Source: Acidobacteriota bacterium
Lineage (GTDB): Bacteria; Acidobacteriota; Terriglobia; Acidiferrales; UBA7541
Reading direction: 5' to 3'
DNA: 64,000 nt
Assembly (NCBI GenBank): GCA_003224145.1
Contig: QHYN01000203.1
Location: 11,201 to 75,200, forward strand
Numbering within the stretch: position 1 is the first letter of the stretch; each line of letters begins with the position of its first letter. The position numbers and the translations under genes are program-made. Of the stretch, positions 7,137 through 50,386 are shown piece by piece. The notes below the pieces were generated by a model, which was not told where the DNA came from, did not search any database, and worked only from the letters and a program-made list of their open reading frames with translations.

Positions 7137-7276
7137 GCCAGCGAAACTTGACCGCAACGCAGTGCTGCGCTAGGGTGTAAAGAGTTTCCCCGGAGCGGGC
7201 TGCGAAGCGGCCACGCGTAACGAGGAGGAATCCCATCGGCCAGCCGGCTCCCGTAACACGAAGACCTTCCAATTGG

Positions 7277-15737: not shown

Positions 15738-15883
15738 GATTTTCACCTGTCCCCCTTGCAGGAAGACCTGCCCGGCCGTACAGGTATTAGCGATTTCAGA
15801 ACGAAGCGCGAAATTCTGACTCCGCTCTCCGCTATCATTTGCTAAGGTGAGCCGTGGGTGCAAACCCGCCGGGAGTATTGTGG

Positions 15884-17602: not shown

Positions 17603-17617
17603 AATTGAGGATAGGCG

Positions 17618-18742: not shown

Positions 18743-18798
18743 AGGATTGGCGAAGCAGCCGTAGGTCAAAGAGATCAAAGAACTAAGGAGGCAATGCG

Positions 18799-20013: not shown

Positions 20014-20098
20014 TCGGGCTCGCTCCGCAGGTCGACATCCGCTTTGCGCAGGGCAGAGGCGCAGCCTCTGCCCTCTGCTTTCCTGCCTGAACTGGGGA

Positions 20099-21748: not shown

Positions 21749-21796
21749 GGCGTTATGCAAGGAACGAAAGCTGCTATCAAGGAAGCGGGACGCGAG

Positions 21797-27642: not shown

Positions 27643-27648
27643 GGAATT

Positions 27649-29292: not shown

Positions 29293-30262
29293 CGCCGCGA
29301 CATTTCAACAGGGCATTTACCGCAATAGTCTCGTCCGGCGTGTGGCGCGCTGGCTCGATGCCATCCCGCATCCGCCGGTAGCCATTGAGATCGCCTCGGA
29401 TCGTCTCGCCGTGGCGCGCTGGAGCCGCGCGGGGTCCCTCGATGAATTCGCCATCGAATTGTTGCCGCCCGGAGCGATTGTTCCCTCTGCGGTCGAGACC
29501 AATCTGTTAAATTCGTTTGCTGTCAAGTCCTCAATAACCAAGGCCTGCGAGAGGGTTCGCACGCGGGATGAAGATGTTGCCCTGATCCTCCCCGATCCCG
29601 TTATTCGCGTCTTTGTCCAGCACTTCGAGGAATTTCCACGCTCCTCGGAAGAAGCAATTCCCTTATTGCGCTGGAAGCTGAAGAAGAGCGTGCCCTTCGA
29701 GGCCGACGAAACGATCATTTCCTACATGCGCCAGGCGCCGCGCGAAACGGGCGTGGACATCGTCACCGCGCTTGGCCGGCTTCGCATTATCCGTGAGTAC
29801 GAAGCGCTCGCCGAGGGAGTTGGGCTTTACCCCGGCGTCGTGCTCAGCTCTTCTCTCGCTGCCATTTCGCTGCTCGACGACGATAGGCCCGCGTTGCTTG
29901 CGCGGGTTTCGGGCTCCGCCCTAACCACGGCGATTGTGCGCTCCGGCGTGCTCTGCGGCTATCGTTGTACCGAACTTCCCGCGGCCGGCGCGGGTCTCAC
30001 TCCGGAAATGCTGCTTGAGGAGATTTTCCCCGTCATCGCCTACTACCAGGACACCTGGCACCAGGGCATTGCCTCGGTCCGGATTGCGGGCCTCGGTACG
30101 CGCCTCGCCGAATTTGCCCGTCCCTTGGAGCAGGAATTTCATTGCCAGGTGCGCTCCTTATTGCAGTCCGCGCTTTCGGAAGGGCGCATCAAGGATGATG
30201 TACGCCAGCTCGCCGATCGTGACCTGGAAGGCCTGGTTGGCTGGATGTTGCACGGCGGCTAA
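29285..30262 (+). CDS. PilM-like cytoplasmic alignment protein
   Basis: VAIEIASDRL and RWKLKKSVPFEA motifs; operon position after the ATPase and before PilN/PilO-like genes. Confidence 0.65.
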   Translation: MSSAATFQQGIYRNSLVRRVARWLDAIPHPPVAIEIASDRLAVARWSRAGSLDEFAIELLPPGAIVPSAVETNLLNSFAVKSSITKACERVRTRDEDVALILPDPVIRVFVQHFEEFPRSSEEAIPLLRWKLKKSVPFEADETIISYMRQAPRETGVDIVTALGRLRIIREYEALAEGVGLYPGVVLSSSLAAISLLDDDRPALLARVSGSALTTAIVRSGVLCGYRCTELPAAGAGLTPEMLLEEIFPVIAYYQDTWHQGIASVRIAGLGTRLAEFARPLEQEFHCQVRSLLQSALSEGRIKDDVRQLADRDLEGLVGWMLHGG

Positions 30263-30295
30263 GAAGAATTTTCAGAGTTCGGGAAACAAGTCGAA

Positions 30296-30868
30296 ATGCG
30301 AGTTCGACTCAACTTAGCAACCAAGCCGACGGAAACGCACCGCCGCTTCCTTGCCGGTGCTGGCGTCTCCATTTTCGCTGCAGCCGTCGTTTTTCTTGGG
30401 CTGGGGTGGCACGCCTACTCCGTCCGCAATGCAGCCGCTGAAGTTCGCGCCCGCACGGACAAAATGGACCAGGAGTTTGCCAAGTACGAAGCGCAGCGCC
30501 AGGAACTCGAGCGCTATTTCAGCCAGAAAGACATCGCCAGCCTCCATGACCGCGCCACTTTCATCAACGGCATCATCGATGCACGCAGCTTCAACTGGAC
30601 GCAGATGTTCATGGACCTTGAGCACACTTTGCCGCCCGGTGTTCGTGTCATCCGGATTGAACCCAAGCAGGTTGGCGGGCATGTCGAAGTCAAATTGGCC
30701 GTTGGCGCGACAAACGATGAAGCCAAGCTGAATTTCTTGCATATCCTCGCAACTTCAAAGCACTTCTCCGACGTCCAGGAACAGAGTGATGTCTCTCCCA
30801 GCACGGCCAACAATGTCGGCGGCGATCAGAGGATTGTTCAATTGACGACTACTTATTCGGGGACTTGA
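30296..30868 (+). CDS. PilN-like protein
   Basis: Begins with the MRVRLNLA (N-L/P) motif; single TM helix, coiled coil, then LPPGVRV; operon position. Confidence 0.7.
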   Translation: MRVRLNLATKPTETHRRFLAGAGVSIFAAAVVFLGLGWHAYSVRNAAAEVRARTDKMDQEFAKYEAQRQELERYFSQKDIASLHDRATFINGIIDARSFNWTQMFMDLEHTLPPGVRVIRIEPKQVGGHVEVKLAVGATNDEAKLNFLHILATSKHFSDVQEQSDVSPSTANNVGGDQRIVQLTTTYSGT

Positions 30869-31428
30869 TGCGACGTGACTTCACAACCCGCAGGCGGACC
30901 ATTCTCGGATGCTTGGTCGTTCTCCTGCTCGCCGATCTGGTTCTTGCCGGCTACAGTTGGCAGCTCGCGTCTTCTCCGCAGATGCCTCGGGAGCAATCCG
31001 CCAGGCAGGCCTTGCAGCTTAAGTTGCTGCAAAAAAATATAGAAGAAGTGCAAAAGATCAAAGCGGACATGCCCACGACCCAAAAAGAATGCGAGAAGTT
31101 TGAACAATCGCTGCTTTCCTCGAGCAACGGGTACTTTTCCCTTTCTTCCGAGCTCGGCGCAATTGCGAAAAAAGGCGGTGTTCAGCTCGAGGCCCTTTCG
31201 TTCAAGCCCACCGCCATTCCGGAACGTGGGATGACGGAGATGGTGATCGAGTCCACCATCAAGGGGGATTACCGGAGCGTGATTGAATTCTTGAACGGCC
31301 TGCAACGCTCTGCCAATATTTACGAAGTCGAGTCTCTGACCCTGGCCACCGAAAAATCGAACCAAGGGACGACGAATCTCATAAAGCTGGAACTGCATCT
31401 GAAGACGTATTTTCGGACAACGGCGTGA
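30865..31428 (+). CDS. PilO-like protein
   Basis: Single TM helix plus coiled coil; GDYRSVIEFLNGLQ...YEVESLTL motif. Confidence 0.7.
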   Translation: MMRRDFTTRRRTILGCLVVLLLADLVLAGYSWQLASSPQMPREQSARQALQLKLLQKNIEEVQKIKADMPTTQKECEKFEQSLLSSSNGYFSLSSELGAIAKKGGVQLEALSFKPTAIPERGMTEMVIESTIKGDYRSVIEFLNGLQRSANIYEVESLTLATEKSNQGTTNLIKLELHLKTYFRTTA

Positions 31429-32006
31429 AGCAGAAACGCCAACTCGCTGGGCTCATCGCGCTCTTGATCATTGCCGCCGGCGTGTGGGGGTGGTATCTCC
31501 GGAGAAACCAGCTAGTCGCGCCTACGGAAACGGGTTCCCTTGCCCAAAATTATCACTTGCTCGCCGTGGAAAACCCCCACATCCGAATAGAGGAAATCGA
31601 AAAAGCTCGCAAAACCGAATACAAGAGCACGGGAAGAAATATCTTCAGCGCGGTGGCCTTGCCAACTCAGGTTTCGCAATCGCGCTCTGCTGACCCGCCC
31701 AAGATCGTTGTGAATACTCCTTGCGGCGTTTACGGACCTTGCCCGGAGCCGCCACCGCCGCCGCTGACGCTTCCGGCGAACATGAAATTCTTCGGTTACG
31801 GCACAGGTCCTAACGGCGCCTCCCGCCGCGCCTTCTTCCACGACACCAACGGCGACGATGTGTATATTGTGAACGAGGGGCAAATTTTTTTGAATCGCTT
31901 CCGCATCCTCAAAATCGGCAACGCGAGCCTCGAATTCGAAGAAATTTCCTCAGGGCGCAAGGGCACCGCTCCTCTTGAGGAACAAACTACGGGTCCATCG
32001 GCATGA
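31425..32006 (+). CDS. PilP/GspC-like hypothetical protein
   Basis: N-terminal TM helix, RNIF motif, Pro-rich linker, beta-rich C-domain (VYIVNEGQIFLNRFRILKI). Confidence 0.5.
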   Translation: MKQKRQLAGLIALLIIAAGVWGWYLRRNQLVAPTETGSLAQNYHLLAVENPHIRIEEIEKARKTEYKSTGRNIFSAVALPTQVSQSRSADPPKIVVNTPCGVYGPCPEPPPPPLTLPANMKFFGYGTGPNGASRRAFFHDTNGDDVYIVNEGQIFLNRFRILKIGNASLEFEEISSGRKGTAPLEEQTTGPSA

Positions 32007-33001
32007 TCGCTAAACGCAAACACAAAAAGAGGTTGGGGAAACCTGGTGAGCGCGGCTATGTGTTGCTTTTGGTTGTTTTCATGGCCACTGCTCTGCTCGT
32101 CCTGGCGATGATGATTGCTCCCAACATTCTGACCGAAGGCAAGCGCGAAAAAGAAAAAGAGATGATTTGGCGCGGCAAGCAGTACGCGCGCGGTGTAAAG
32201 CTGTACTACCGCAAAATGGGCCGTTTCCCCACGAATCTGGACGACCTCACCAAACCTAAAGTCGGCTCACTGCGTTTTCTGCGCCAGGCCTACAAGGATC
32301 CCATGAACGTGCAGGATGGTTCATGGAGACTCATTTATGTCGGACCGGCCGGGCAGCTCATTGGCAGCTTGAAACCTCAGCAGCCGAATCTTCAATTCGG
32401 GCAACCAGCCGGAATCGGCACCCCCGTGGGCGCGATGAATGCACCCGGCACCCCGGCGCAACCCGGCGCTTTTGGCCAATCCAATGTTTTCGGCCAGTCC
32501 GGCGCATTCGGTCAAATGGGACAGGCCGGAGGAGCGCCGGCTGGTGGAGCGGCTTTGGGCACGAATCAAGCAAATCCTGCGAATCCAGGAAACGCTGCCA
32601 ACCCTGCGGGCGTGACGGGAATTCCTGTTTCTGCCGATCAGAGCACGGATATCAATGGTCAACCGATTCCGATGGGCGACACTCCTATCATCATGGGTGG
32701 AAACATCATTGGAGTCGGCAGCAAGATCAACCAAAAGTCCGTCATCGTTTATGAGAAAGCAAAAAACTATCGCCTGTTCGAATTTATCTGGGATCCTTCG
32801 AAGGACACATTCGGTATGGGCCAACCCGGCATGCAGACCGGAACGGGGCTGGGGCAACCTCTCGGCCAGCCGCCGGGACAGAATCCGTTCGGTCAGCAGC
32901 CTGCTCAGAATCCGTTCGGCCAGCAGCCCACGCAGAATCCGCAGCAGCAACCTCAAAATCCGCAGCAGCCGCAGCCGCAAAATCCACCGCAACAACAGTA
33001 G
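32003..33001 (+). CDS. GspK/PilX-like minor pilin with Gln/Pro/Gly-rich low-complexity regions
   Basis: RG|YVLLLVV prepilin-like site without Glu5; RFPTNLDDL, LRQAYKDPM; tail of QNPFGQQP-type repeats. Confidence 0.6.
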   Translation: MIAKRKHKKRLGKPGERGYVLLLVVFMATALLVLAMMIAPNILTEGKREKEKEMIWRGKQYARGVKLYYRKMGRFPTNLDDLTKPKVGSLRFLRQAYKDPMNVQDGSWRLIYVGPAGQLIGSLKPQQPNLQFGQPAGIGTPVGAMNAPGTPAQPGAFGQSNVFGQSGAFGQMGQAGGAPAGGAALGTNQANPANPGNAANPAGVTGIPVSADQSTDINGQPIPMGDTPIIMGGNIIGVGSKINQKSVIVYEKAKNYRLFEFIWDPSKDTFGMGQPGMQTGTGLGQPLGQPPGQNPFGQQPAQNPFGQQPTQNPQQQPQNPQQPQPQNPPQQQ

Positions 33002-33068
33002 GCTGCATGTCAGGCTGCATGTCGTGCGGTGTTTCGAAGTTCAGCGCCGGTGCCTCGTGAATCCCGGT

Positions 33069-33851
33069 TTATTGCGAGCCCAGCGTATGCGGAGCCGAAG
33101 ATGGCGATCCCACTGCCGGAGGTGCGGGCGTCGCCGCGCCAGGCGAATTTCGCGTGGCCGCGGCAGGGGAAGTCGCCGATTTGGCTGCGCCGGAGGGAGT
33201 CACCGGTTTGGCTGCGGCGTTGGTCTTACTTTTCTCGTAGGTGCGCTTGACGCGCCGCACGTACGAGATCGTTTCGGCGAAGGGCGGCACGCGCCCGTAT
33301 TGCTGCACGCGATCAGGTCCCGCGTTATAGGCGGCCAACGTCAGCGCCAAGTCGTTGTTGTACTTCTGAAGAAGGTCGCGCAAATAGCGAGTCCCGGCAT
33401 CGATGTTCTCTTTTGGATCGAAAACGTCTTTCACTCCCAAGCGGGCCGCGGTTTCCGGCAGCAACTGCATTAAGCCGCGCGCATTTTTGTGGGAAACGGC
33501 TTTCGGGTCAAAGTTAGACTCCACGGCAATTACACTGGTGATGAGCTCGGCATCCACGCCGTAGCGCGAAGCAGCTGCTGACACCAGTTCGCGGTAGGGC
33601 GGCTGGTCGGCCTGCGCCGCTGGCGGTGCGGGAATCGGAGTGAAGACTTCTTCCGGCTCGATGGCCACTACGTCTTGCGCAGCGACTTCCACCCAGCCGC
33701 CGGCCATTTGCAGACGATACTTGTCACCTACAAGTTGATAGCCCGTCACGTGCAGGCGCAGGCCGGTTCGGAGCGCTATATACTCGGCCCGGAGGTTCGA
33801 CACCGCCAGCAGAAGGAGGGGCGCCAAAAGCGCAATGTGCTTCAGGCGCAC
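33069..33851 (-). CDS. Lytic transglycosylase (SLT domain)
   Basis: IAVESNF, ARGLMQLLPET, ALTLAAYNAG and ETISYV motifs; signal peptide from GTG 33851; Pro/Ala-rich tail. Confidence 0.9.
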   Translation of the reverse strand: MRLKHIALLAPLLLLAVSNLRAEYIALRTGLRLHVTGYQLVGDKYRLQMAGGWVEVAAQDVVAIEPEEVFTPIPAPPAAQADQPPYRELVSAAASRYGVDAELITSVIAVESNFDPKAVSHKNARGLMQLLPETAARLGVKDVFDPKENIDAGTRYLRDLLQKYNNDLALTLAAYNAGPDRVQQYGRVPPFAETISYVRRVKRTYEKSKTNAAAKPVTPSGAAKSATSPAAATRNSPGAATPAPPAVGSPSSAPHTLGSQ

Positions 33852-34693
33852 GGCGCGGCCTCCCGCAGCGCAAATTGTTCGATCGCGTGCGCTACGCCGT
33901 TTTCGTCGTTGCTGGCGGTCTCGTGCCAGCCAAACGTTTTCAATTCCGCCACGCCGTTGCCCATCACCACGGGAATGCCCGCGAAGGTGAGCATTTCCAA
34001 GTCGTTGTGGTTGTCGCCAATAGCCATGATTTCTTCGCGCGCGAACCCGCGTAGCGTGGCCCATTCCGCCAGCGACGCTCCCTTCGAGCAGATGGGATTG
34101 AGCACATCCATCATCGCGAAGTCCCGCTGCTCGTAACAGGTCACTGCGAGCGCGAACTCGCCGGCGAAGGGCGCTGCGCGAAGCGCTTTCTCCGCGTCCC
34201 GCATCGGCGCGACCTTCCCCGAAAGCATCACCTGGATGGGGTCTTCGGTCAAGCAGGTTTCTAACGGATTCGCCAGGCCGATGAATTCTTTGTTGCGCGA
34301 ATAATAGGCGTAACGAAGGGAATCGTCCGGGTCGAGCGTTTCCAGCATCAACTGGTTTTCCAACGGACGGTCGAAGATGACCGCCGCGCCTTCGCGCCAG
34401 GGCTTGGTCAGGTTGAGAACGCGTTCCGCGGTACGCAGCGGCAGTAGATGGCGAAGATGCGTGCGGCCATCGTTCGAGCGGATCAACGCGCCGTTGTTGA
34501 CGATCATGGTGAGCGGGGCATGGAGCTGGCGCGCTACGGGCATGGCGAAATCGTAGCGCCGCCCGGTGACCAGGGCCACTTCGATGCCTCGCCGCTCGGC
34601 CTCCGCGATCGCCGCGCGGTTGGCTTCTGAAACCTGCCAGCGGCTGTCCAGCAGCGTGCCGTCAATATCCAGCGCAATGAGTCGCACCGCCAT
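33842..34693 (-). CDS. Cof-type HAD hydrolase
   Basis: DIDGTLL, VTGR, SKG and AIGDNHND motifs. Canonical start ATG 34693; the frame is open upstream to GTG 35038. Confidence 0.9.
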   Translation of the reverse strand: MAVRLIALDIDGTLLDSRWQVSEANRAAIAEAERRGIEVALVTGRRYDFAMPVARQLHAPLTMIVNNGALIRSNDGRTHLRHLLPLRTAERVLNLTKPWREGAAVIFDRPLENQLMLETLDPDDSLRYAYYSRNKEFIGLANPLETCLTEDPIQVMLSGKVAPMRDAEKALRAAPFAGEFALAVTCYEQRDFAMMDVLNPICSKGASLAEWATLRGFAREEIMAIGDNHNDLEMLTFAGIPVVMGNGVAELKTFGWHETASNDENGVAHAIEQFALREAAPCA

Positions 34694-34857
34694 GCCTCTA
34701 TTGTAGCGGGAGAGAACGTTTGCACGTTGGAAAGTTTGCAGGTTGCACGTCTGTAAGAGCGGGAATGCGAAGAGTCGGTTCCAGAATGGGAAGCGGACTT
34801 CAAGTGATTCTTGAGGATTTTGGCAAGAAAGATCAAGTGACACCCGGCAGTTTTCGC

Positions 34858-34923
34858 AAGAGCGGATTCTAAAGGGGTTACGGGCGTCACAGTTTGTAAG
34901 AGCGGAATCTAAAGGACTTACGG
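34858..34923. repeat. Two 26-nt direct repeats with 40-nt period (plus a degenerate copy at ~34755)
   Basis: AAGAGCGGATTCTAAAGGGGTTACGG (34858) and AAGAGCGGAATCTAAAGGACTTACGG (34898); three mismatches. Confidence 0.75.
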
Positions 34924-35043
34924 TGACACGTTTTTCGTCACGGTGACGCGCAACGAGGAGGTAAGGAAGCAAAAAGGTAAGGATGTAAATAGAAGGATCG
35001 AAAAGCGAGGGGCGGGGGGAGAGGAGTCGAGAATTCACGACCT

Positions 35044-35072
35044 ATGATACCCTGAATTATTTGTTCTGTCAA
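35044..35072 (-). promoter_or_regulatory. Near-consensus sigma70 promoter facing the repeat tract and HAD gene
   Basis: Minus strand TTGACA-17 nt-TATCAT. Confidence 0.7.
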
Positions 35073-35520
35073 GTAAAAATAAAGTATTTCTGTTGAGCAA
35101 GTTGCGGAATCGTTCGAATTGGCGTGTAAGAAAAAGAAAACACAGGGGTAGAGTTTACAGGGGGCGGAGGGAAATGCAGGAGAGTGGAATGAATGGCGCT
35201 GGCGGGCGCAAGAGGAACAAGAAAAGGCAAAGTCAAAGGCCCCACACGTAAAACCGACATGTTGGGGCACCCAAATTCGTATCAAGATTTATCGTCCGGG
35301 CCACCCGCCGAGTGGCTGTTCGCTGGATGAGGATTTTACCCACAGCGTCAACGTTCTTCCGCCCGGAGCTGAGATGAGTGACCCTATAATGAGGGCTTAT
35401 CCGAACCGCGAACGTGGAAGTGCTTGCTTCTAGGCCGCCTTGTCCACGGCGATTTAGGTGGGTCGGCCAAGACAAGCGGTGGGCGCATTGCGGGGCGCAC
35501 GGAAAGGAAGAGAGCCGCCG

Positions 35521-35937
35521 ATGAAGATCCCAGAACAGCTGCATGCCTCCGCCGCCGAAGAAGCGAAAAAAAAAGAAGTTCGTCGGCAGCTTGACTTCGC
35601 ATATGCCTGCTTCGCCCTTCTCGGCCTGACCATGCTGGCCTTTGAGGCCGAAGCATTTGTCGACGCAAAGAACCAGGGAGCTTACGCAATGACCATTGGC
35701 CTGCTGCTTCTCCTGCCATCCATGCTCGCTTTTGTGCTCGCCATCTGCCTGACTGTGATGCGCCGGCGTTACCGGCCCATCGTCGTCTTTTGCCTTCTCA
35801 CCATGCTGCTTCTGGCCCTGGCGATTGGAAGCGTTGCCATGGCCTGGATCTACGGAGCCGTCTCCATGCTCGTACCTGCCTGGTGGTTCACCGTCGGCAG
35901 ATGGCGCAATGCGATCCCTCCCCGCTCGCTTGGGTGA
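35521..35937 (+). CDS. Unknown small polytopic membrane protein, paralogue A
   Basis: About four hydrophobic helices; motifs LDFAYACF and PAWWFTVGRWR shared with three neighbours. ATG at 35521. Confidence 0.75.
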   Translation: MKIPEQLHASAAEEAKKKEVRRQLDFAYACFALLGLTMLAFEAEAFVDAKNQGAYAMTIGLLLLLPSMLAFVLAICLTVMRRRYRPIVVFCLLTMLLLALAIGSVAMAWIYGAVSMLVPAWWFTVGRWRNAIPPRSLG

Positions 35938-35982
35938 TAAGCGACGGGAGTGGAATGATATAGAGAACATAAGGAGGCACTG

Positions 35983-36417
35983 ATGACGATCCCAGGACAG
36001 CCGCATGCCTCCCCCGCCGAAGAAGCGGAGAAAAAAGAAGTTCGTCGGCAGCTTGACTTCGCGTATGCCTGCCTCGCTTTTGTGGGCTTCACAATGTTGG
36101 CCTATGTGGCCGAACCATTCTTTGTTGACGCGAAGAGCCCAGGGGCAGAAGCAGGCTATAGCTTTGTTGTCGGCATAGGCCTTGTGCTTCCCTCGATGCT
36201 CGCACTTGTGCTCGCCATTTGCTTGACCGTGATGCGCCGGCGTCACCAGCCGATCGTAATCTTCTGCATGCTCAACGTGCTGCTTCTATCTCTGGCTCTA
36301 ATCTGGGAGAACAATTCCATGCGGTGGGTCTACGGAACTGTTTCAATGCTCGTACCTGCCTGGTGGTTCACCGTCGGCAGATGGCGTAACACGGACACGC
36401 CGCTCTTGCAGCCATGA
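35983..36417 (+). CDS. Unknown small polytopic membrane protein, paralogue B
   Basis: LDFAYACL and PAWWFTVGRWR; AAGGAGG ribosome-binding site; tandem duplicate of A. Confidence 0.78.
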   Translation: MTIPGQPHASPAEEAEKKEVRRQLDFAYACLAFVGFTMLAYVAEPFFVDAKSPGAEAGYSFVVGIGLVLPSMLALVLAICLTVMRRRHQPIVIFCMLNVLLLSLALIWENNSMRWVYGTVSMLVPAWWFTVGRWRNTDTPLLQP

Positions 36418-36522
36418 ATCTCCCTTCCTCCTTACTTTTCCTCACTTCTCGTTTCGATATTTCAACAGTTATCACACAGTGCCGCGCTCCCAGGCACCTG
36501 TCTTGGTATGACCACCTGAAGT

Positions 36523-37038
36523 TTATTCCTGAGCGAGCGCCTTGCTTCTGTAGCGCCGTCTGCCCATGGCAAACCACCACGCCGGTAATAGGATGTTGGC
36601 GGCTATATAGATTGCGGCTCCGATGGCCACTGCATTGTCGAGATAATGTGGAAGGTTAGGTGCGTCCGAGTGGGATATGTAAATCATGGCTCCGCCCACA
36701 CAAACTATCGAGACCACGGAAAGAACCACGAGCGCCGAGTGACGCCAGAACTTCACGGTCAGTACGATGCCGCACACCGAAGCAAAGAGCATTCCCACTA
36801 AAAGCAGAGGACCTAAAAGCATCGCCCCGACCAACGTCCACCCAAAGCCGTGCGAACCTTCATCAAAGTTCACCAGGCCAAACTGTGACAGTAAGGCGGC
36901 AATGCCGAAAGACATGGTCACCAAGCCGAGAAAGCCGAAGCAGCCATAGGCCCGGTCCAGCAGGGCGTCCTCGCTCTTTTCTGTGACTGCTTTTAGCACT
37001 GCTCTTAGCAGGGCGAAGATGGCTTCCAGCAAGTCCAT
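36523..37038 (-). CDS. Unknown small polytopic membrane protein, paralogue C
   Basis: LDRAYGCFGFLG and PAWWFAMGRRRYRSKA; its ATG directly follows the TAA of paralogue D. Confidence 0.78.
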   Translation of the reverse strand: MDLLEAIFALLRAVLKAVTEKSEDALLDRAYGCFGFLGLVTMSFGIAALLSQFGLVNFDEGSHGFGWTLVGAMLLGPLLLVGMLFASVCGIVLTVKFWRHSALVVLSVVSIVCVGGAMIYISHSDAPNLPHYLDNAVAIGAAIYIAANILLPAWWFAMGRRRYRSKALAQE

Positions 37039-37641
37039 TTACTTGACTTCCTTCTCGCTCACTATCCGTTCATTCGCCTTGCTTCTGTAGCGCCGCCTGC
37101 CCATGGTGAACCACCACGCGGGTATGAAGATGTTCGCGGTTATGTAGATCCCGAATGCGATGCCCAGCACATAGCCCGTCACATAGTCGAGAGTGGGATG
37201 GAGGTCCGAATAGCGCATGTAAATCATCGTTCCGCCCCAAAAAATGATCGAGATCACGGAAAGAACCACGAGCGCCGGGTGCCGGAACCGCACCGTCTGC
37301 CGGATGCCGTAGATCGTGGCACAGAGCATTCCCGGAATACCTAAAAATATCGTCCATCCCTCCAACTTTATCCCGACGATGGCGTCAAAGTTCATCAGGT
37401 GGAACTCGTCCAGTAAGGCGCCAAGGCCGAAGGGCAGGGTCACCAATCCGAGAAAGGCAAAGCAGCGATAGGCGCGGTTCAGCCGCGCATACTCCAACCG
37501 AAGGACCTCACTACTGTTTTCCGGGACAAGGGCAGGCGACGCCGGCTGGTGTACTGGCGTCGAATGTGAATCCCTCCAATACTTCGCCAGCAACAGGACC
37601 GTCGCGGCCACGATCAAAAGCGTTGTCAGGCTGACATCCAC
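37039..37641 (-). CDS. Unknown small polytopic membrane protein, paralogue D (extra N-terminal TM)
   Basis: LNRAYRCFAFLG and PAWWFTMGRRRYRSKA; GTG start with an AGGAG site upstream. Confidence 0.78.
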   Translation of the reverse strand: MDVSLTTLLIVAATVLLLAKYWRDSHSTPVHQPASPALVPENSSEVLRLEYARLNRAYRCFAFLGLVTLPFGLGALLDEFHLMNFDAIVGIKLEGWTIFLGIPGMLCATIYGIRQTVRFRHPALVVLSVISIIFWGGTMIYMRYSDLHPTLDYVTGYVLGIAFGIYITANIFIPAWWFTMGRRRYRSKANERIVSEKEVK

Positions 37642-37911
37642 GTGCTGCTCCTTCTGGAATTTCCGAGTCTACAGGCTCTTCCTTCTCGATTGCTAGCTTT
37701 AGCAGGAGATTTCACCAGCTAAATACAACAGCTTTGCTGCCAGCCACAAAACCCTCAATATGGTCCGTTGCGGTTGTGGGCGGCGCATTAGTTTCTCTAT
37801 GCCGGATAACCGTGCTAACCGCACAAGCGAAACCACATGTCCCGCAATCCGACCTCTCAGGAGTTACATTGACAACGCGCAGCTTTGGGCAGCATTGCTT
37901 CGAGGTGCTCT

Positions 37912-39176
37912 ATGCTCCGACCCGTACTGCCGCTGCAACTTTTATCGTCCCTGGTCTTAGTTCTGTGCTCCCCTGTGATTGGCCAGAACCAAACCTCACT
38001 CGGCGAGGCAGCGCGTCAAACGAAGGCTGCTAAATCCGCCGCGCCGGATAAAGCTGCGAAAGTTATCACAAACGAAACTCAGGACGGGCAAGGCGCCTGC
38101 ACACTGCCAGCCCAATCGACGAAGGACCCTACGGCGGAGGACGCGCTGCGCATGGCATTTCTCCATCGGATTGCTGGGCGGTGGAATTTAGCCTATTCCG
38201 GCAAGGGTAACCATCACTGGTGGCCGAATCACGGCTCGGTAGGGCCCAAGGACCAAATTCATTACTTGTTTGGACCCACAGAGTTGTCAATAGAATCTAG
38301 CCCGAATTCAATCCGACTTCCGTCACTGGTCGCTTTGTCTATGGCTCGGTGCGCAAGATCTCGGCGGACGTGTTCGATGTGGCTCTGTACAAGCCTTGCG
38401 AGCCCGCCACCCAAGAAATCAAGCGGTTCAAACTCTTAATCAACGGGAAGATGCTAGAAATCACGGCAGACGCTGAAGGAAATCCAGAACCTACCATCCA
38501 GGTTCTGGAACTTGTCGAACCAAGCTTCGCCCTTCCGCAGGAACCGAAGCCGAAAGTGCAGTCCGGCGAGATCAAGGAAGGCAAGCAGTACACGAGTAGC
38601 AAGGGAATGTTCTCCATTACTGTACCTCCGCGCAATTGGGCTGTAGACACGTACAAATTTGAAGAGTCACAGTTGAAGTATGAAAACTATGACTACGAGG
38701 AAGTGGTCTTTTACATCCCTGACTTTGGACAAGCCTACGGGGTAGGGGTTCGCCGGATTCCGCAGGCGGCCCTGATACAGATGGCAAAAGAGGAAGAGAA
38801 GCAAACACTCTCGAGCCTTGCGAATAAAGCCCTTCACCAATGGCGGGACTATGCCGCAGAACCCCAGCCGGTGGAAGAAACCTCCCTCCAGACGCAGTTC
38901 GGAGCAAGTTTGCTCCGTATCTACCTTGCTAAGCGTTCCTCGCTGGGTGAAACCGCGGTCGGTGGAGACAGGATCGGCAATCTCAAAGGCGAGAAGCTTG
39001 ATACTCACATTGCTGTGATTGTGGCGAAGAAGGGGGATTTGTTCATCTATGCGACAGTGGAAGACGACGATCTGCAGTCCAACTCCACACGACCGCCACA
39101 GGGTCCTTTCGACCCCAAACCAATCTTGAGCAAGAAGTTGCAGAGCTTCTTTGCCAGCATGACCGTAAAAATCTGA
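37912..39176 (+). pseudogene. Secreted hypothetical protein split by a single-base frameshift near 38301
   Basis: Frame 1 has a signal peptide and runs to ...ELSIESS. The second frame is open from 38301 (PEFNPTSVTGRFVYGSVRKISAD...) to the stop at 39176. One extra C in AGCCCG would fuse them. Confidence 0.6.
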
Positions 39177-39277
39177 CACAAGCCCACCCTGTGGGCGAAT
39201 GGACGCATAGTAGGCTACACGTCAGAAGTGCCCTCCTTCGCAGCCAATTTGCGACGCCTCTCGGGATTGTGCCTGGA

Positions 39278-40804
39278 TCACGGTGTTGCCGGAACAGGAC
39301 GAACACTGCGGAGCTGGTTGACAATATCGATCGCCAGCCGCTGCGCCGCGGCGGGACCGTCAATTGCGGTGACCTTCCCTGTTCCCAGGACCATGCCTGT
39401 TTTCGGGCTAATCATTTTGAAAATCCAGTCGTACGTCAGGAAGGGCCGCGTGACGTCGATATAGATATCGGCTCCGTTGCGGTCGTCGACGATACGGATG
39501 CCCCACTCCTTCATCTCGGGCCGAATGTAAAGCGCGTCTTGCAACAAATTGCCCTTCATCCAGATCGTGTGGGATTCCACAAATATCGATCGAGCAGAGC
39601 GAAGAATTCCTGCCGGATCGTTTCCTGATTCACGAATCGCCGTGTTGTTCGCCTCCGATGTTCCGGTAGGTCTGTCCAGTTCTTCGCGCGGGAACTGCAC
39701 GGCACTCGCGAGCTGCTCCACAATGACTTCCGCCAGCTTCGGACCGGCGTCGAATTCATCGGTTGCTTCAACCATGCCTGAAGCGAGTGTCAAGGACTTG
39801 GGCTGATAAACCAGGGTGTAGGTCCAGTCAAACGTCATGACCGGCCGGTCAACGGTGATGGCAATATCGGCAGTCTGCCCGTAATCGGCGAAGCGCAATC
39901 CCAAGTGCGGGAACATCGCTGTTTTATGAATATCGTCCTGCAGCCGCTCGCGGCGCAAATAAATCGTTTTGGAATGCACCGAAATGGTGTACATTTGCCG
40001 CTGGTCCGGGCGAGGTAGAGTCAGACCAGGAGGAGCCACTGGTGCTGCAGGAGGGTTGGAAGGAGCCGCTGCAGCGGACGCGGCTTTGGCGCTGAATGGC
40101 TGCAGACGCGCGCCCGAGTCAAAGCGCGCGCCGCCAGATGCATTGCCGAGACCGGCAATGCTGTCGAAGGGCACGGCAAAATTCAGGTTCTGGCCGACGC
40201 TGAGTGAACCGACGACGATTCCTAGTATCCTAGCTTCGGCATCCACCAGCACGCCGCCGCTGGATCCGGGCGACAATGGAGCGGTGAACTGCAAAACCCG
40301 GTAGCCACTACCAGCCCCGGGTACATCGTCGGCCATTCGGGTGGCGCTCAGGATGCCGGAAGATGCAGTCCAGGGCAAGCCCACAGCGTTCGATACGACA
40401 AAAACCGTGGCACCGGATGCCGCGCTAGCGGAGTTGCCGATGGGCAGCACTGGAAGCCCCGTTGCAGGGATGCGCAGTGCTGCAACGTCGCGGCGCTCAT
40501 CGGACGCGATCAGCTCGACTTGGTCGTAGATTTCGCCGCTTTTGACCCGCACTTGCACCTCGCGCATCCCTTTCACGACATGGTTCGCAGTGAGGATCAC
40601 GCCATCGCTCCGGACAATCACGCCGGAAGCTACGCCCGCCACTTGGCCGTCACCTTTGCCGACCAGAATGGATACAGCTGCAGGCGAAACTCGATCGACG
40701 ACTTGATCTCCGGACAGTGCTTGGGGAGTTCCGCCTTGCCCCATCAAGTTCGATGTGGACATCCCGCACAGAACCGCGATAGCTAACAAGTTGACTAGTC
40801 GCAT
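39278..40804 (-). CDS. Secreted trypsin-like (S1) serine protease with two repeated C-terminal domains, no PDZ
   Basis: Catalytic triad motifs LTANHV, RDVAAL and PGSSGG; signal peptide; internal duplication in the C-terminal ~230 aa. Confidence 0.85.
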   Translation of the reverse strand: MRLVNLLAIAVLCGMSTSNLMGQGGTPQALSGDQVVDRVSPAAVSILVGKGDGQVAGVASGVIVRSDGVILTANHVVKGMREVQVRVKSGEIYDQVELIASDERRDVAALRIPATGLPVLPIGNSASAASGATVFVVSNAVGLPWTASSGILSATRMADDVPGAGSGYRVLQFTAPLSPGSSGGVLVDAEARILGIVVGSLSVGQNLNFAVPFDSIAGLGNASGGARFDSGARLQPFSAKAASAAAAPSNPPAAPVAPPGLTLPRPDQRQMYTISVHSKTIYLRRERLQDDIHKTAMFPHLGLRFADYGQTADIAITVDRPVMTFDWTYTLVYQPKSLTLASGMVEATDEFDAGPKLAEVIVEQLASAVQFPREELDRPTGTSEANNTAIRESGNDPAGILRSARSIFVESHTIWMKGNLLQDALYIRPEMKEWGIRIVDDRNGADIYIDVTRPFLTYDWIFKMISPKTGMVLGTGKVTAIDGPAAAQRLAIDIVNQLRSVRPVPATP

Positions 40805-41343
40805 GGCCCCTCCTTCCTAGTGCGATACTTTGCGATCAGCGGGTGGGACTCGTCACACCGCGCTAGTCACATTCGAGTGAGTTTTGTGGTTTCTGACTTA
40901 GACTTGCTTCTCGATTGGCTCCGAGTATATACCCATTGGGCTCCAACGCGGCGACCGGGTGGTTCTTCTCGCCCGCGCCCGCTAATCCAGGCCGCAGATA
41001 CGCAAGCGCCAAATACGCAACTAACATCACTTTTCGCATGGCGGCGGCCTCCTTTGTTTATTCTCGATCGCCGAACTACCCGGCACTGTCCGTGGCACTT
41101 TTCAGTCCATACCTTTGCGAACCAATGTGGCGGGGAATAAGGCGAATTACGCAAGGCAAATTTGGCAGCAGAGCCTGTGGTCTGCAAGATTCTCCTGACA
41201 TCGTCATCCGGGCAGGACACTCGGAGCTGCAGCACCAGTCGCAGGGACAAGGAAATTACGTGGGTACACTTCTGGGGTTATGCGCGCAGAACGCAAGGGC
41301 TTGCAGTTGCCGTCGTTTGACTTGCCAGCTGCGAGGGCCTAAC

Positions 41344-42741
41344 ATGACCCGCCAAGAGCAAGCTCCTTCTCCAATTATGGTCGGACAGACCATTTCGCAC
41401 TTTCGAATCCTTGAGAAGCTGGGCGAGGGAGGAATGGGCGTCGTCTATAAGGCCGAGGACACTAGGCTGGGTCGCTCGGTGGCGCTGAAATTCCTCCCTG
41501 AAGAGCTTTCCACGGACCACCATGCGGTGGATCGATTTCAACGGGAAGCCCGTGCCGCATCGGCTTTGAACCATCCCAACATCTGCACGATCCACGACAT
41601 TGATGAGCACAAGGGCCAGTTCTTCATCGTCATGGAGCTACTCGAGGGAAAAACCTTAAAGTATTATATCAGTAGGAAGCCCTTCAGCATTGAGTGTCTG
41701 CTGGAGCTTGGCATGCAGATCGCCGACGCGCTAGATGCCGCGCATGCGAAGGGCATTGTCCATCGCGATATCAAACCCACGAATATCTTCGTGACAGCAC
41801 GGGGCCAGGCTAAGGTCCTCGATTTTGGCCTAGCCAAACTGTTCCGGCCGCTGGCCTTTGGGGTGACCGCTGGCCCCGCGACGGCGGAGACTGCGACGAT
41901 GTCTACTGCTTCAGGCATGCTCGTCGGCACGGTGGCCTACATGGCTCCGGAACAGCTCGAAAGTCAGCCTGTGGACCCGCGCACCGATGTTTTCGCGCTC
42001 GGTCTCGTGCTGTACGAGATGGCCACCGGGTGCAACCCCTTCCTCGGCCGGTCAGCCACTTCCACCATTGCGAACATCCTGAAGGAAGAAGTGCCGCCTG
42101 TTGCGCAGCGCAATCCCCTGGCTCCCCCTGAGCTGGAGCGCATCGTGCAGAAATGCCTGCGCAAGCGCATTGATGAGCGATACGCCTCGGCTCGAGACCT
42201 TGCGGTCGATCTTGCAGCTTTGCGTCGAAGCCTCGAACCGACGACGGGGCGGCGCTCTGCCGCGGTGGCTGCCGAGCCTGCAGCGCCCCTTGCGATACCG
42301 CGCGGCGCCATCCGGGCCTTGCTGGAGCTCATTCAAGTCGGCTATCTGGCCATGTATGGGCTGGCGCTCTATAAGTTCCACGACGTGCTGCGCGTCAGCC
42401 ACGAGCTGTACACGTCGACCGTCTTGGGCGGAGTCTTGGGTGGAGTGCTACTGATGGCTAGCGTGCTCGGCGTTCCCGTGCGTCTCTACCAGTTCACTGC
42501 CATTGCTTTCGACTACCGCGACCTTGGCCAGAAGTTTCGCAGGTTGTTTCCGTTCGTATTACTGCTCGATGTAGTCTGGGCTGCGGCTCCCTTGCTCTTT
42601 CTCGGGCAGCTCCAGGGGCTTGTCCTAGTCTGTGCGGCCGCACTTGCCTTTCTTCCGTTCTCGCAGCGTACGCTACTCTACGCTGCTTATGCTCACACGG
42701 GTGGCCGCTCCTCCGCTATCCAGATGCCGGGCTCTAACTGA
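41344..42741 (+). CDS. Hanks-type Ser/Thr protein kinase with a C-terminal multi-pass membrane domain
   Basis: [21 protein letters not shown] and GTVAYMAPE all intact; about four hydrophobic helices at the C-terminus. ATG 41344 or 41377. Confidence 0.9.
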
Positions 42742-50310: not shown

Positions 50311-50386
50311 TGGTGGACGAGAGGGGATTCGAACCCCCGACCTCCTCGTTGCGAACGAGGCGCTCTCCCAGCTGAGCTACTCGCCC
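50311..50386 (-). tRNA. tRNA-Ala (anticodon CGC)
   Basis: GGGCGAGTAGCTCAGCTGGGAGAGCGCCTCGTT-CGC-AACGAGGAGGTCGGGGGTTCGAATCCCCTCTCGTCCACCA; 76 nt, encoded CCA. Confidence 0.97.

What the first reader, a model, noticed from the sequence alone, without database searches (positions are those of the whole stretch)
35521..37641. Four-member array of an unrecognised small membrane-protein family with fixed ends and variable middles
Seen: four adjacent 138-200 aa hydrophobic proteins, two on + (A, B) and two on - (D, C), pointing at each other. All share L[DN]xAYxC[FL]xx[LV]G near the N-terminus and PAWWFxxGRxR at the C-terminus. I recognise neither motif from a named family. A and B are identical over 41 nt at the 3' end (35866-35906 vs 36346-36386) and differ at only 4 of ~70 nt at the 5' end, while the central loop region carries indels and many substitutions. 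D and C are translationally coupled (TAA-ATG). Inference: conserved recombinable ends around a variable, probably surface-facing loop is the architecture of poly-immunity or receptor-decoy arrays. These could be immunity proteins against membrane-acting toxins, or phage-exclusion or receptor variants. No cognate toxin is visible in the window.
Basis: partly seen in the sequence, partly recalled or inferred. Interest (0 to 1): 0.75.

Follow-up and report, generated by a model that had tools for sequence, protein, structure and literature searches.

The report
Recombining array of unknown membrane proteins
Four neighbouring genes in a soil Acidobacterium encode an undescribed family of small four-helix inner-membrane proteins whose conserved ends act as natural crossover points, giving inversions, gene fusions and reshuffled variable loops, but what the proteins do is still unknown.

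Summary
Four real paralogous genes lie at 35521-37641: A and B on +, C and D on -. They share the L[DN]xAYxC and PAWWFxxGRxR motifs, a 41-nt identical run in A and B, and a TAA-ATG junction between D and C.

No Pfam, NCBIfam, PADLOC, PHROG, PDB or Foldseek match exists. About 100-130 relatives were found, all from soil metagenomes or Acidobacteriota MAGs, none viral.

The proteins are predicted as four-helix inner-membrane proteins with both ends in the cytoplasm. The three conserved blocks sit on the cytoplasmic side. The two variable cassettes face the periplasm, not the cell surface.

New result: the conserved blocks are used as crossover points in nature.
- In a sister lineage, the 781-bp segment between the PAWWF-coding DNA of B and D is inverted. 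This swaps the B and D tails and moves gene C into the other operon.
- Both junction types occur in one sequencing run.
- Same-species variants carry A/B fusions, with crossovers exactly in the 32-nt and 41-nt identical runs.
- Other lineages carry a D/C fusion and cassette mosaics.
- Arrays hold 1-4 genes in unrelated genomic contexts.

No toxin, recombinase or mobile-element gene is linked anywhere. An immunity or recognition role is plausible but untested.

The parts
35421..35520 (+). Conserved leader of about 100 nt upstream of the first A/B-class gene. It marks the left edge of the conserved module.
   Evidence: Alignable at high identity in 8 contigs whose further flanks are unrelated. 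No Rfam match. Only 1 of 24 predicted pairs shows a compensatory change.
35521..35937 (+). Gene A, 138 aa. Four-helix membrane protein of the A/B class.
   Evidence: AF2 model has mean pLDDT 85 and helices at 11-46, 49-80, 85-101 and 105-131. The exact protein is on 22 public contigs.
35569..35600 (+). 32-nt run identical to 36031-36062 in B. It is the crossover interval of the A/B fusion, a 462-bp deletion.
   Evidence: Separate 32-nt unitig at double depth. In L056-L060, A-type bases run up to 35568 and B-type bases start at 36063.
35617..35712 (+). Gene A, variable cassette L1: periplasmic half of helices 1-2 plus loop 1.
   Evidence: Against B: pS 0.63, pN 0.28, 4 gap columns. L1 types reassort with L3 types.
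35791..35850 (+). Gene A, variable cassette L3: periplasmic half of helices 3-4 plus loop 3.
35866..35906 (+). 41-nt run coding MLVPAWWFTVGRWR, identical to 36346-36386 in B. It is the crossover interval of the A-body/B-tail fusion, a 480-bp deletion.
   Evidence: locus L061.
35983..36417 (+). Gene B, 144 aa, A/B class.
36350..36386 (+). Inverted-repeat arm in B (PAWWF..GR.R coding DNA). It is the equivalent of the left inversion junction seen in the sister lineage.
   Evidence: In blastn of L019 and L029 against the window and L028, this 37-nt stretch aligns with both the flank and the flipped segment.
36418..36522 (.). Intergenic stretch of 105 nt between the convergent genes B and C. It lies inside the invertible segment.
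   Evidence: No convincing terminator found by the consensus scan.
36523..37038 (-). Gene C, 171 aa, C class. It starts directly after the D stop codon, and the inversion flips it into the B operon.
   Evidence: AF2 model has pLDDT 74, with four TM helices plus an N-terminal helix.
36553..36612 (-). Gene C's copy of the motif-coding DNA. It is a direct repeat of D's copy and an inverted repeat of the copies in A and B.
   Evidence: the repeat finder items D4 and I2. A D-body/C-tail fusion is seen in L063.
37039..37641 (-). Gene D, 200 aa, GTG start, D class, with an extra N-terminal hydrophobic helix.
37091..37127 (-). Inverted-repeat arm in D. It is the equivalent of the right inversion junction.
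37642..37812 (-). Conserved region upstream of D. It marks the right edge of the conserved module.
   Evidence: Similarity to L019, L034, L035 and L063 ends at 37795-37812.

Best explanation
Shown. The locus is a cluster of four paralogues of an undescribed protein family so far seen only in Acidobacteriota. Each protein is a small four-helix inner-membrane protein.
- Three short blocks are conserved across the whole family: LxRAYxCFxFLG, GIxxTVRFRH and YxxxNxxxPAWWFxxGRRRY.
- Two cassettes, L1 and L3, vary by substitutions, indels and wholesale replacement.
- The DNA of the conserved blocks is a natural crossover substrate. B x D recombination inverts a 781-bp segment, which swaps the two C-terminal tails and moves gene C from the D operon to the B operon. 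A x B and D x C recombination fuses genes and shrinks the array. Crossovers in the central and 3' blocks reassort L1, L3 and tail types.
- The whole module, about 2.4 kb (35421-37812), is 84-94% identical in contigs with unrelated flanks.

Inferred.
- Both protein ends are cytoplasmic. The conserved blocks lie at the cytoplasmic membrane interface and the cassettes face the periplasm.
- The conserved cytoplasmic side is the working scaffold. The periplasm-side cassettes are specificity determinants kept diverse by recombination among paralogues and alleles.
- The most likely role is protection from, or recognition of, agents that reach the inner membrane from the periplasm, meaning orphan immunity against membrane-acting toxins.
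- The rearrangements are most simply sporadic short-homology recombination and gene conversion that persist as polymorphisms, not a dedicated switch.
For: Family and fold:
- No hit above threshold in Pfam, NCBIfam, PADLOC or PHROGs.
- PDB profile search gave only weak TM-like matches. Foldseek gave nothing below E = 0.5.
- AF2 models show four long helices.
- K+R residues cluster in the N-terminus, the loop between helices 2 and 3, and the C-tail.
- In 28 non-redundant members, entropy is low at reference positions 27-43, 90-100 and 144-163, and high at 61-70 and 121-140.

Inversion:
- L029 against L028: the middle 781 bp is 99.2% identical but reversed. The flanks are 96% and 98.5% collinear, with a 37-nt overlap at both joints.
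- Gene order becomes B'(D tail) > C > < D'(B tail), with intact ORFs.
- The longest exact match between the two arms is 12 nt, so a k-mer misassembly is excluded.
- The inverted state is in NCBI, ENA and three JGI samples.
- Runs X24 and X25 hold inverted joints (depth 6-8) and a normal B joint (depth 3.1-3.5). Run X37 is inverted, with a B L1 region that does not lay on L029 at 95% identity. Runs X26-X30 and X36 are normal.

Fusions and mosaics:
- L056-L060, five k141 assemblies, have the crossover in the 32-nt run. L056 also carries a SNP and a frameshift in C.
- L061 has its crossover in the 41-nt run. L063 is a D/C fusion. L022 combines A-type L1 with B-type L3.
- All four combinations occur for L1 x L3 and for L3 x tail among 29 A/B-class proteins.
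- Synonymous divergence is mosaic (p = 0.0009).
- Loop pN/pS is 0.7-1.8 in most comparisons. Window D against sister D has 0 synonymous and 9 non-synonymous changes between the first and last conserved blocks, all 9 in the loops.

Copy number is 1-4. Contexts are unrelated.
Against: On function:
- No toxin, T6SS, CDI or bacteriocin gene lies next to any family member examined. There is no similarity to known immunity proteins and no expression data.
- Many genomes carry a single copy among housekeeping genes, which also fits an ordinary cellular role.
- Loop pN/pS is not significantly above 1, so relaxed constraint cannot be separated from diversifying selection.

On mechanism:
- Arms with at most 12 nt of perfect identity are poor substrates for RecA-type recombination.
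- The crossover maps to a 7-nt identical core (TACCCGC) at the body-side edge of the repeat.
- Both orientations coexist in one sample.
- These points lean towards a site-specific enzyme, which is the first rival explanation.
Confidence: 0.4

Rival explanations
1. Programmed inverton or shufflon. A site-specific recombinase encoded elsewhere in the genome flips the segment between the B and D repeats, and possibly other pairs. A clonal population would then hold cells with different tail/body combinations and different operon membership of gene C, which is phase variation.
For: - The arms are short and imperfect: 37 nt, with 12 nt the longest exact run. The crossover falls in a 7-nt identical core flanked by mismatches.
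- Both hybrid ORFs stay intact.
- Both joint types occur in one run, X24/X25.
- Both states occur among samples of one study: X24 and X37 against X30 and X36.
- The inverted state is on at least two B-allele backgrounds (P0018/P0221 and P0086; also X37), and the P0018-type B allele also occurs with a normal tail in P0220.
- The lineage showing the inversion has the perfect TACCCGC core in both arms. The window's B has TACCTGC, and the window species was only ever seen in one orientation.
- Invertases of known invertons are often not adjacent to their targets (PMC10028968).
Against: - No recombinase was found in the 64-kb window or in any flank of related loci.
- The three inverted contigs that could be compared share one B-body haplotype, which fits a single old event.
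- Allele backgrounds can be swapped later by the cassette recombination that is evidently frequent.
- Metagenome contigs cannot separate a strain mixture from switching.
- Only one of the six possible repeat pairs is seen inverted.
Confidence: 0.2
2. An ordinary lineage-specific membrane protein, for example a subunit of a small hetero-oligomeric transporter or channel, or an envelope accessory factor. The loops vary only because they are unconstrained, and the recombination among tandem paralogues is incidental.
For: - Many genomes have a single copy set among housekeeping genes (MetH, DAHP synthase, BamA/TamB, TonB, GltB) and there are no mobile-element genes.
- The strongly conserved cytoplasm-side residues (Y, C, T, N, P, WWF, RRR) suggest a common biochemical function.
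- D and C are directly coupled, and tandem pairs recur in relatives, as expected for hetero-oligomer partners.
- Loop pN/pS is close to 1.
Against: - There is no match to any transporter or channel family.
- Cassettes are replaced wholesale and reassorted among alleles.
- Copy number varies from 1 to 4 even within a species.
- A C frameshift allele occurs on several contigs from different collections.
- The module is 84-94% identical in quite different genomic contexts.
- None of this is typical of a housekeeping subunit.
Confidence: 0.3
3. An inner-membrane phage-entry receptor variant or a superinfection-exclusion protein. The periplasmic cassettes would diversify to escape, or to block, phage DNA-injection machinery.
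For: The periplasm-facing variable cassettes and the recombinational diversification are also what is expected for a phage-interaction surface.
Against: - No relative was found in IMG/VR viral contigs.
- No PHROG or PADLOC match.
- No prophage genes lie near any locus.
Confidence: 0.06
4. The rearranged forms are assembly chimeras created at the repeated motif, and only the four-gene reference arrangement is real.
For: The A/B fusions have their crossovers exactly in the 32-nt and 41-nt exact repeats. That is also where a k-mer assembler could mis-join. L061 is a k=31 Logan contig.
Against: - The inversion arms share at most 12-17 exact nt, too short for any assembler k. The inverted form was assembled independently by NCBI submitters, ENA, JGI and Logan.
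- L056-type fusions come from five separate k141 assemblies; L056 itself also carries the 36477 C>T change and a +1 frameshift in C.
Confidence: 0.03

Closest known systems
Shufflons and 'partial intergenic invertons' (R64 pilV/Rci, phage Mu G segment/Gin; catalogue in PMC10028968)
   Same: Inverted repeats lie inside oppositely oriented paralogous coding sequences. Inversion exchanges the 3' parts of the genes in frame and re-wires what is co-transcribed. Both orientations exist in natural populations.
   Different: - No recombinase gene is adjacent.
- The repeat is simply the DNA for a conserved protein motif.
- The exchanged part is a short cytoplasmic tail of 9-16 residues plus a whole neighbouring gene, not the large variable specificity domain.
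- Switching within a clone is not shown.
- The R64 and Mu details come from my own knowledge.
Phase-variable type I restriction hsdS loci (for example the pneumococcal ivr locus)
   Same: Several paralogues in direct and inverted orientation recombine at conserved blocks that separate variable specificity modules, giving reassorted chimeras.
   Different: The protein family, cellular location and function are entirely different. Those loci carry a tyrosine recombinase gene, and none is seen here. This comparison rests on my own knowledge.
Inner-membrane immunity proteins against pore-forming colicins and membrane-acting T6SS/CDI effectors; orphan poly-immunity arrays
   Same: Small polytopic inner-membrane proteins, in arrays of diverged paralogues with variable copy number. 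Specificity is expected in the membrane and periplasmic parts.
   Different: No cognate or neighbouring toxin was found in any context. There is no sequence or fold similarity. Protection has not been tested.
Paired small 4-TM transport proteins (paired SMR type)
   Same: Adjacent, tightly coupled genes for small 4-TM proteins, suggesting a hetero-oligomer.
   Different: - No hmmscan match.
- All four proteins are predicted with the same N-in/C-in topology.
- No membrane-embedded acidic residue is conserved.
- The cassette-like diversity is not typical of transporters.

Membership tests
Shufflon / programmed inverton | Inverted repeats located in oppositely oriented coding sequences that bound the invertible segment | tested here: met
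   The 37-nt arms are at 36350-36386 and 37091-37127. In the sister lineage they are the exact joints of a 781-bp inversion.
Shufflon / programmed inverton | Both orientations exist and both give intact reading frames | tested here: met
   L028 type against L029, L020, L064-L066. Hybrid ORFs are P0018 (151 aa) and P0009 (184 aa).
Shufflon / programmed inverton | Both orientations within one clonal population (reversible switching) | tested here: inconclusive
   Both joint types occur in runs X24 and X25. These are soil metagenomes kept as contigs, so a strain mixture cannot be excluded.
Shufflon / programmed inverton | Dedicated site-specific recombinase encoded next to the invertible DNA | tested here: not met
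   No recombinase domain was found in the window ORFs scanned or in the flanks of L013, L015, L017, L022, L024, L028, L031, L034, L035 and L054. A recombinase acting in trans is not excluded.
Immunity proteins to membrane-acting toxins / poly-immunity arrays | Cognate toxin gene adjacent, or linkage to toxin or secretion loci in relatives | tested here: not met
   Neighbours are HAD hydrolase, SLT, trypsin-like protease, Ser/Thr kinase, MetH, DAHP synthase, TonB, BamA/TamB, GltB, LysR, redoxin and similar.
Immunity proteins to membrane-acting toxins / poly-immunity arrays | Sequence or fold similarity to a described immunity family | tested here: not met
   Pfam, NCBIfam, PADLOC, PDB profile search and Foldseek all gave nothing significant.
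Immunity proteins to membrane-acting toxins / poly-immunity arrays | Small polytopic inner-membrane protein in arrays of variable copy number | tested here: met
   Four predicted TM helices. Arrays of 1, 2, 3 and 4 genes. Array size is polymorphic within the species.
Immunity proteins to membrane-acting toxins / poly-immunity arrays | Protects against a specific toxin | not testable with these tools
   This needs an expression and competition assay.
Any curated protein family (Pfam-A, NCBIfam) | hmmscan score above the family's curated cut-off | tested here: not met
   The best hits are far below the cut-offs, for example DUF6541 at 15.2 bits against 29 and Ycf66_N at 20.8 against 22.3. No family recurs among the 84 members scanned.
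Anti-phage defence systems / phage proteins | Match to a PADLOC or PHROG model, or presence on viral contigs | tested here: not met

The most novel reading that the evidence does not exclude
The array is a true shufflon acting on inner-membrane proteins. A recombinase encoded elsewhere uses the PAWWF-coding repeats, and perhaps the other conserved blocks, to flip and reassort tails, operon membership and periplasmic specificity cassettes. A clonal lineage of soil Acidobacteria would then keep presenting new variants of a new immunity or recognition protein family. This would be a diversity-generating system of a kind not yet described for membrane immunity proteins.
Probability: 0.12. Interest if true: 0.85.

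Novelty: new variant of a known kind. Interest (0 to 1): 0.58.

Why it matters
Acidobacteriota are among the most abundant soil bacteria, and most of their lineage-specific genes are uncharacterised. This is a compact, well delimited case of an unannotated membrane-protein family with a clear division into a conserved cytoplasm-side scaffold and exchangeable periplasm-side cassettes. Natural rearrangements are caught at nucleotide resolution.

If the family proves to be immunity or recognition proteins, it would point to an unknown class of membrane-targeting antagonism in soil. It would also show how poly-immunity arrays diversify without a linked toxin.

If the inversion proves to be enzyme-driven, it would extend shufflon-type variation to a new phylum and a new kind of target protein.

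Even on the modest reading, the locus defines a new family that deserves a model in the domain databases.

Tried and rejected
- **Rfam scan** of 33000-40000 at E <= 1: no match.
- **Promoter and terminator consensus scan:** no more sites than in shuffled sequence.
- **RNA-seq runs:** three metatranscriptomes from one of the studies were listed, all with 0% of the words, so there is no expression evidence.
- **Viral contigs:** no relatives.
- **Fold searches:** PDB for both models and BFVD viral for the C model, nothing below E = 0.5.
- **PDB profile search:** weak SecY-like TM matches at E about 1e-3 over 80 residues, judged hydrophobic noise.
- **JGI label** 'succinate-acetate transporter' on P0042: it corresponds only to a sub-threshold AceTr_1 hit at 16 bits against a cut-off of 50, so it was rejected.
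- **Conserved neighbours:** all-against-all BLAST of flanking ORFs from 24 loci found no recurrent partner. A Ser/Thr kinase lies near three arrays and TonB_C near two.
- **tRNA-flanked island in the sister lineage:** only a 46-nt tRNA-Ala fragment and a 118-bp direct repeat were found, with no integrase.
- **Structured RNA in the leader:** too little covariation to call.
- **Single or repeated inversion events:** not resolvable. The three comparable inverted contigs share one B haplotype, but other data show other B alleles.
- **Literature search** for a described family: nothing specific.
Full report
**1. What is in the sequence**

Four ORFs lie head to tail and tail to tail:
- A, 35521-35937 (+), 138 aa
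- B, 35983-36417 (+), 144 aa
- C, 36523-37038 (-), 171 aa
- D, 37039-37641 (-), 200 aa, GTG start where relatives have ATG

A and B are 68% identical. C and D are about 30% identical to A. All four share L-[DN]-x-A-Y-x-C near the start of the first hydrophobic helix and P-A-W-W-F-x-x-G-R-x-R at the end of the last.

- The 41-nt identity 35866-35906 = 36346-36386 is exact. Public assemblies hold it as a separate unitig at double depth.
- The 5' ends differ at 6 of the first 80 nt and share a 32-nt identical run, 35569-35600 = 36031-36062.
- The D stop codon abuts the C start codon.

The genes are real. The four-sequence profile finds 129 proteins in one collection and 103 representatives at 50% identity in the other. 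The conserved blocks are under purifying selection in most comparisons, with pN/pS of 0-0.4.

**2. Organism and setting**

The window is core chromosome of a Terriglobia-class Acidobacterium. Its PhoH is 90% identical to Candidatus Angelobacter and 89% to Candidatus Acidoferrum.

Around the array lie type IV pilus and T2SS-like operons, two-component systems, a lytic transglycosylase, a Cof-type HAD hydrolase, a trypsin-like protease, a Ser/Thr kinase, AlaRS, TatC and similar genes. There is no toxin, secretion-system effector, recombinase, transposase or phage gene among the window ORFs scanned. The same four-gene arrangement is on at least 22 public contigs from many soil samples.

**3. The family is undescribed**

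- No Pfam, NCBIfam, PADLOC or PHROG model reaches its threshold for any of the four proteins.
- No family recurs among 84 diverse members.
- A profile search of PDB sequences gives only weak hydrophobic matches.
- AlphaFold2 models of A (pLDDT 85) and C (pLDDT 74) show four long helices. C has an added N-terminal helix, and D has an added N-terminal hydrophobic segment.
- Foldseek finds nothing below E = 0.5 in the PDB or in viral models.
- Named relatives come from Acidobacteriota MAGs, plus two bins labelled Dormibacterota and Syntrophobacteraceae that may be mis-binned.
- None is on a viral contig.

**4. Anatomy of the protein**

Lys and Arg cluster in the N-terminal segment, in the short loop between helices 2 and 3 (RRRY, KFWRH, RFRH) and in the C-tail. 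The other two loops are neutral or acidic. By the positive-inside rule this gives an N-in/C-in topology, which is an inference.

In 28 non-redundant members, entropy is low in three blocks, all at the cytoplasmic ends of helices:
- LxRAYxCFxFLG
- GIxxTVRFRH
- YxxxNxxxPAWWFxxGRRRY

Entropy is high in two cassettes: L1 (periplasmic halves of helices 1-2 plus loop 1) and L3 (helices 3-4 plus loop 3). The variable parts therefore face the periplasm, not the cell surface.

**5. The conserved blocks are crossover points in nature**

This is the main new result.

(a) *Inversion.*
- In a sister lineage the array has three genes, B> <C <D, and the module is about 90% identical to the window.
- Contig L028 has the window orientation. 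L029 (WNFG01057969.1) has the 781 bp between the two PAWWF-coding stretches reversed.
- The middle is 99.2% identical but flipped. The flanks are 96% and 98.5% identical and collinear. A 37-nt stretch is shared by both alignments at each joint (against the window).
- The gene order becomes B'(D tail)> C> <D'(B tail). B' is now directly coupled to C, and all ORFs are intact.
- The two arms share at most 12 exact nucleotides (TGGTGGTTCACC), so no k-mer assembler could have created the joint.
- The inverted form was assembled independently in NCBI, ENA and three JGI samples.
- Logan contigs of runs X24 and X25 hold the inverted joints (depth 6-8) and also a 79-nt contig for the normal B joint (depth 3.1-3.5).
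- Run X37, from the same study as X24, is inverted, and its B L1 region does not lay on L029 at 95% identity. Runs X26-X30 and X36 are normal.
- The crossover maps to a 7-nt identical core (TACCCGC) at the body-side edge of the repeat. The window's own B has TACCTGC there, and the window species was only seen in one orientation.

(b) *Fusions in the window's own species.*
- Five independent k141 assemblies (L056-L060) carry an A-head/B-body gene, a 462-bp deletion. The switch from A-type to B-type bases falls inside the 32-nt identical run.
- L056 also carries 36477 C>T and a +1 frameshift in C.
- L061 carries A-body/B-tail, a 480-bp deletion with its switch inside the 41-nt run. L061 is a k=31 contig and counts for less.

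(c) *Other lineages.*
- L063 has a D-body/C-tail fusion and lacks C.
- L022 is a single gene with A-type L1 and B-type L3.
- L062 has a B-like body with the A-type tail.

(d) *Reassortment.* Among 29 distinct A/B-class proteins, all four combinations exist for L1 x L3 types and for L3 x tail types.

(e) *Mosaic history inside the window.* Synonymous differences between A and B are 3 per 21.5 sites in the first 32 codons and 15.2 per 24 sites in L1 (p = 0.0009). This indicates gene conversion at the ends, not only protein-level constraint.

**6. Selection on the cassettes**

Between orthologues of the window, L028 and L024, the conserved blocks mostly show pN/pS of 0-0.4; the exceptions rest on very few synonymous changes. 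The cassettes mostly show 0.7-1.8:
- C L1: 1.61 and 1.79
- D L3: 1.18
- Window D against sister D: 0 synonymous and 9 non-synonymous changes between the first and last conserved blocks, all 9 in the loops, plus a 6-codon indel

It is not significantly above 1, so diversifying selection and relaxed constraint cannot be separated.

**7. Copy number and context**

Relatives have 1, 2 (tandem), 3 (tandem or convergent) or 4 genes.

The module from about 35421 to about 37812 is 84-94% identical to contigs whose flanks share nothing with the window or with each other. It includes a conserved leader of about 100 nt before the first gene and about 170 nt before D. The flanks include:
- Ser/Thr kinase-TPR, DUF4386 and cupin in L028
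- GltB, LysR and TonB in L024
- redoxin and RDD in L031
- MetH, DAHP synthase and a giant peptidase in L013
- TonB, GGDEF and MotAB in L015
- BamA/TamB and ThiF in L017

No integrase, transposase or toxin appears in any of them.

**8. How it most likely works**

*Shown:* a new 4-TM family, a conserved scaffold with two variable cassettes, and recombination at the scaffold-coding DNA that inverts, fuses and reassorts.

*Inferred:*
- The topology.
- The cassettes are specificity determinants facing the periplasm.
- The diversity is maintained because it matters in an interaction with something that reaches the inner membrane from outside.

The best functional guess is orphan immunity or recognition towards membrane-acting toxins. 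The only support is architecture: small polytopic proteins, arrays, cassette diversity and copy-number polymorphism. Nothing links the family to a toxin.

An ordinary lineage-specific membrane function with unconstrained loops remains a serious rival. It is favoured by single copies in housekeeping contexts, a strongly conserved cytoplasmic face and coupled gene pairs that suggest hetero-oligomers.

On mechanism, the A/B and D/C events look like plain homologous exchange in the longest identical runs. The B x D inversion uses arms that are very short for RecA. That fact, and the co-occurrence of both states in one sample, keep a programmed, recombinase-driven inverton alive as a rival. Invertases are often not adjacent to their targets (PMC10028968). 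Against it, no recombinase was found, and the comparable inverted contigs share one B haplotype.

**9. Comparison with known systems**

The locus works like a shufflon or 'partial intergenic inverton', and like recombining hsdS loci, in that conserved repeats inside inverted paralogues reassort gene parts. It fails the membership feature of an adjacent dedicated recombinase, and clonal switching is untested.

It resembles poly-immunity arrays in architecture. It fails the features of toxin linkage and family similarity. It belongs to no curated protein family.

**10. Verdict**

Novelty: a new protein family showing a new variant of a known kind of behaviour, recombinational shuffling of paralogous genes. 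Interest is moderate to high because natural rearrangements are caught at nucleotide resolution in an abundant, poorly known phylum. It is limited by the unknown function.

Noticed in passing
window 34691-35520: An unusually long non-coding stretch of about 830 nt lies between the HAD hydrolase gene and gene A. It has a purine-rich, strongly G-skewed part (GC skew up to 0.36, GC 0.48 at 34750-35250). It also has two 30-nt direct repeats 40 nt apart (34860-34889 and 34900-34929, GAGCGGAWTCTAAAGG..TTACGG). No Rfam match. Only the last 100 nt or so is conserved in relatives.
   Followed up: partly
window 33842-35038 (-): The 398-aa form of the HAD (Cof-type) gene called on several public contigs looks over-extended. 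The Pfam Hydrolase_3 match starts at residue 5 of the 282-aa form that begins MAVRLIALDIDGT (start at about 34690), and one public contig aa.
   Followed up: partly
window 35421-35520; L028 3664-3766 and six other loci: The leader before the first A/B-class gene is conserved in sequence across unrelated genomic contexts. A predicted pairing joins a GGUGGG stretch with the GCCGCC just before the start codon. Covariation is too sparse to call a structure (1 compensatory pair of 24).
   Followed up: partly
L034 3206-3251; L028 7305-7350; L019 263-308 (against window tRNA-Ala 50311-50386): In the sister lineage a 46-nt fragment lies a few hundred nt from the D side of the array. It is 96-98% identical to the 3' part of the window's tRNA-Ala(CGC), and ARAGORN finds no intact tRNA there. 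L028 also has a 118-bp direct repeat (3312-3429 and 7157-7274) bracketing the array plus a DUF4386 gene and a cupin gene. This could be an old integration scar, but no integrase is present.
   Followed up: partly
L056 about 1820 (window about 36639); also L025, L057 and protein P0036: A +1 A insertion in a short A run frameshifts gene C. It is seen on several contigs from different collections, so C is probably a pseudogene in some strains of the window species.
   Followed up: partly
L034 1-1697; L035 3387-5083: In two contigs, B is reduced to its last 40 codons or so. The breakpoint is equivalent to window 36298, inside cassette L3, and unrelated sequence without Pfam hits lies upstream. The same 976-aa Ser/Thr kinase gene (99.9% identical) lies left of B in L028 but right of D in L034. 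This points to a further rearrangement or a second array copy.
   Followed up: partly
L032 (Ga0137420_1403070), whole contig: A frameshift-ridden contig carries family fragments in both orientations, like a palindromic duplication. It is probably an assembly or sequencing artefact and was not used as evidence.
   Followed up: no
L005 10013-10663; L006 10013-10669: Some family members carry an insertion of about 80 residues in cassette L3, so this loop can hold a small periplasmic domain. A few distant representatives have two family domains fused in one protein.
   Followed up: no
window 40915-42741; L028 323-3253; L054 683-3451: A Ser/Thr protein kinase gene lies within a few kb of the array in three otherwise different contexts, with 55-58% identity in the kinase domain. 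TonB_C proteins lie next to family genes in two more loci (L015, L024). The numbers are too small to call an association.
   Followed up: partly
window 15854-23179 and 26428-33001: Two separate pilus/secretion gene sets lie upstream of the array. One is PilB/PilT/PilC-like with PilS/PilR-like regulators. The other is a GspF/GspE-like operon with pseudopilin-like genes. The last ORF of the second operon (32003-33001) ends in a long Q/P/G/N-rich low-complexity tail.
   Followed up: no
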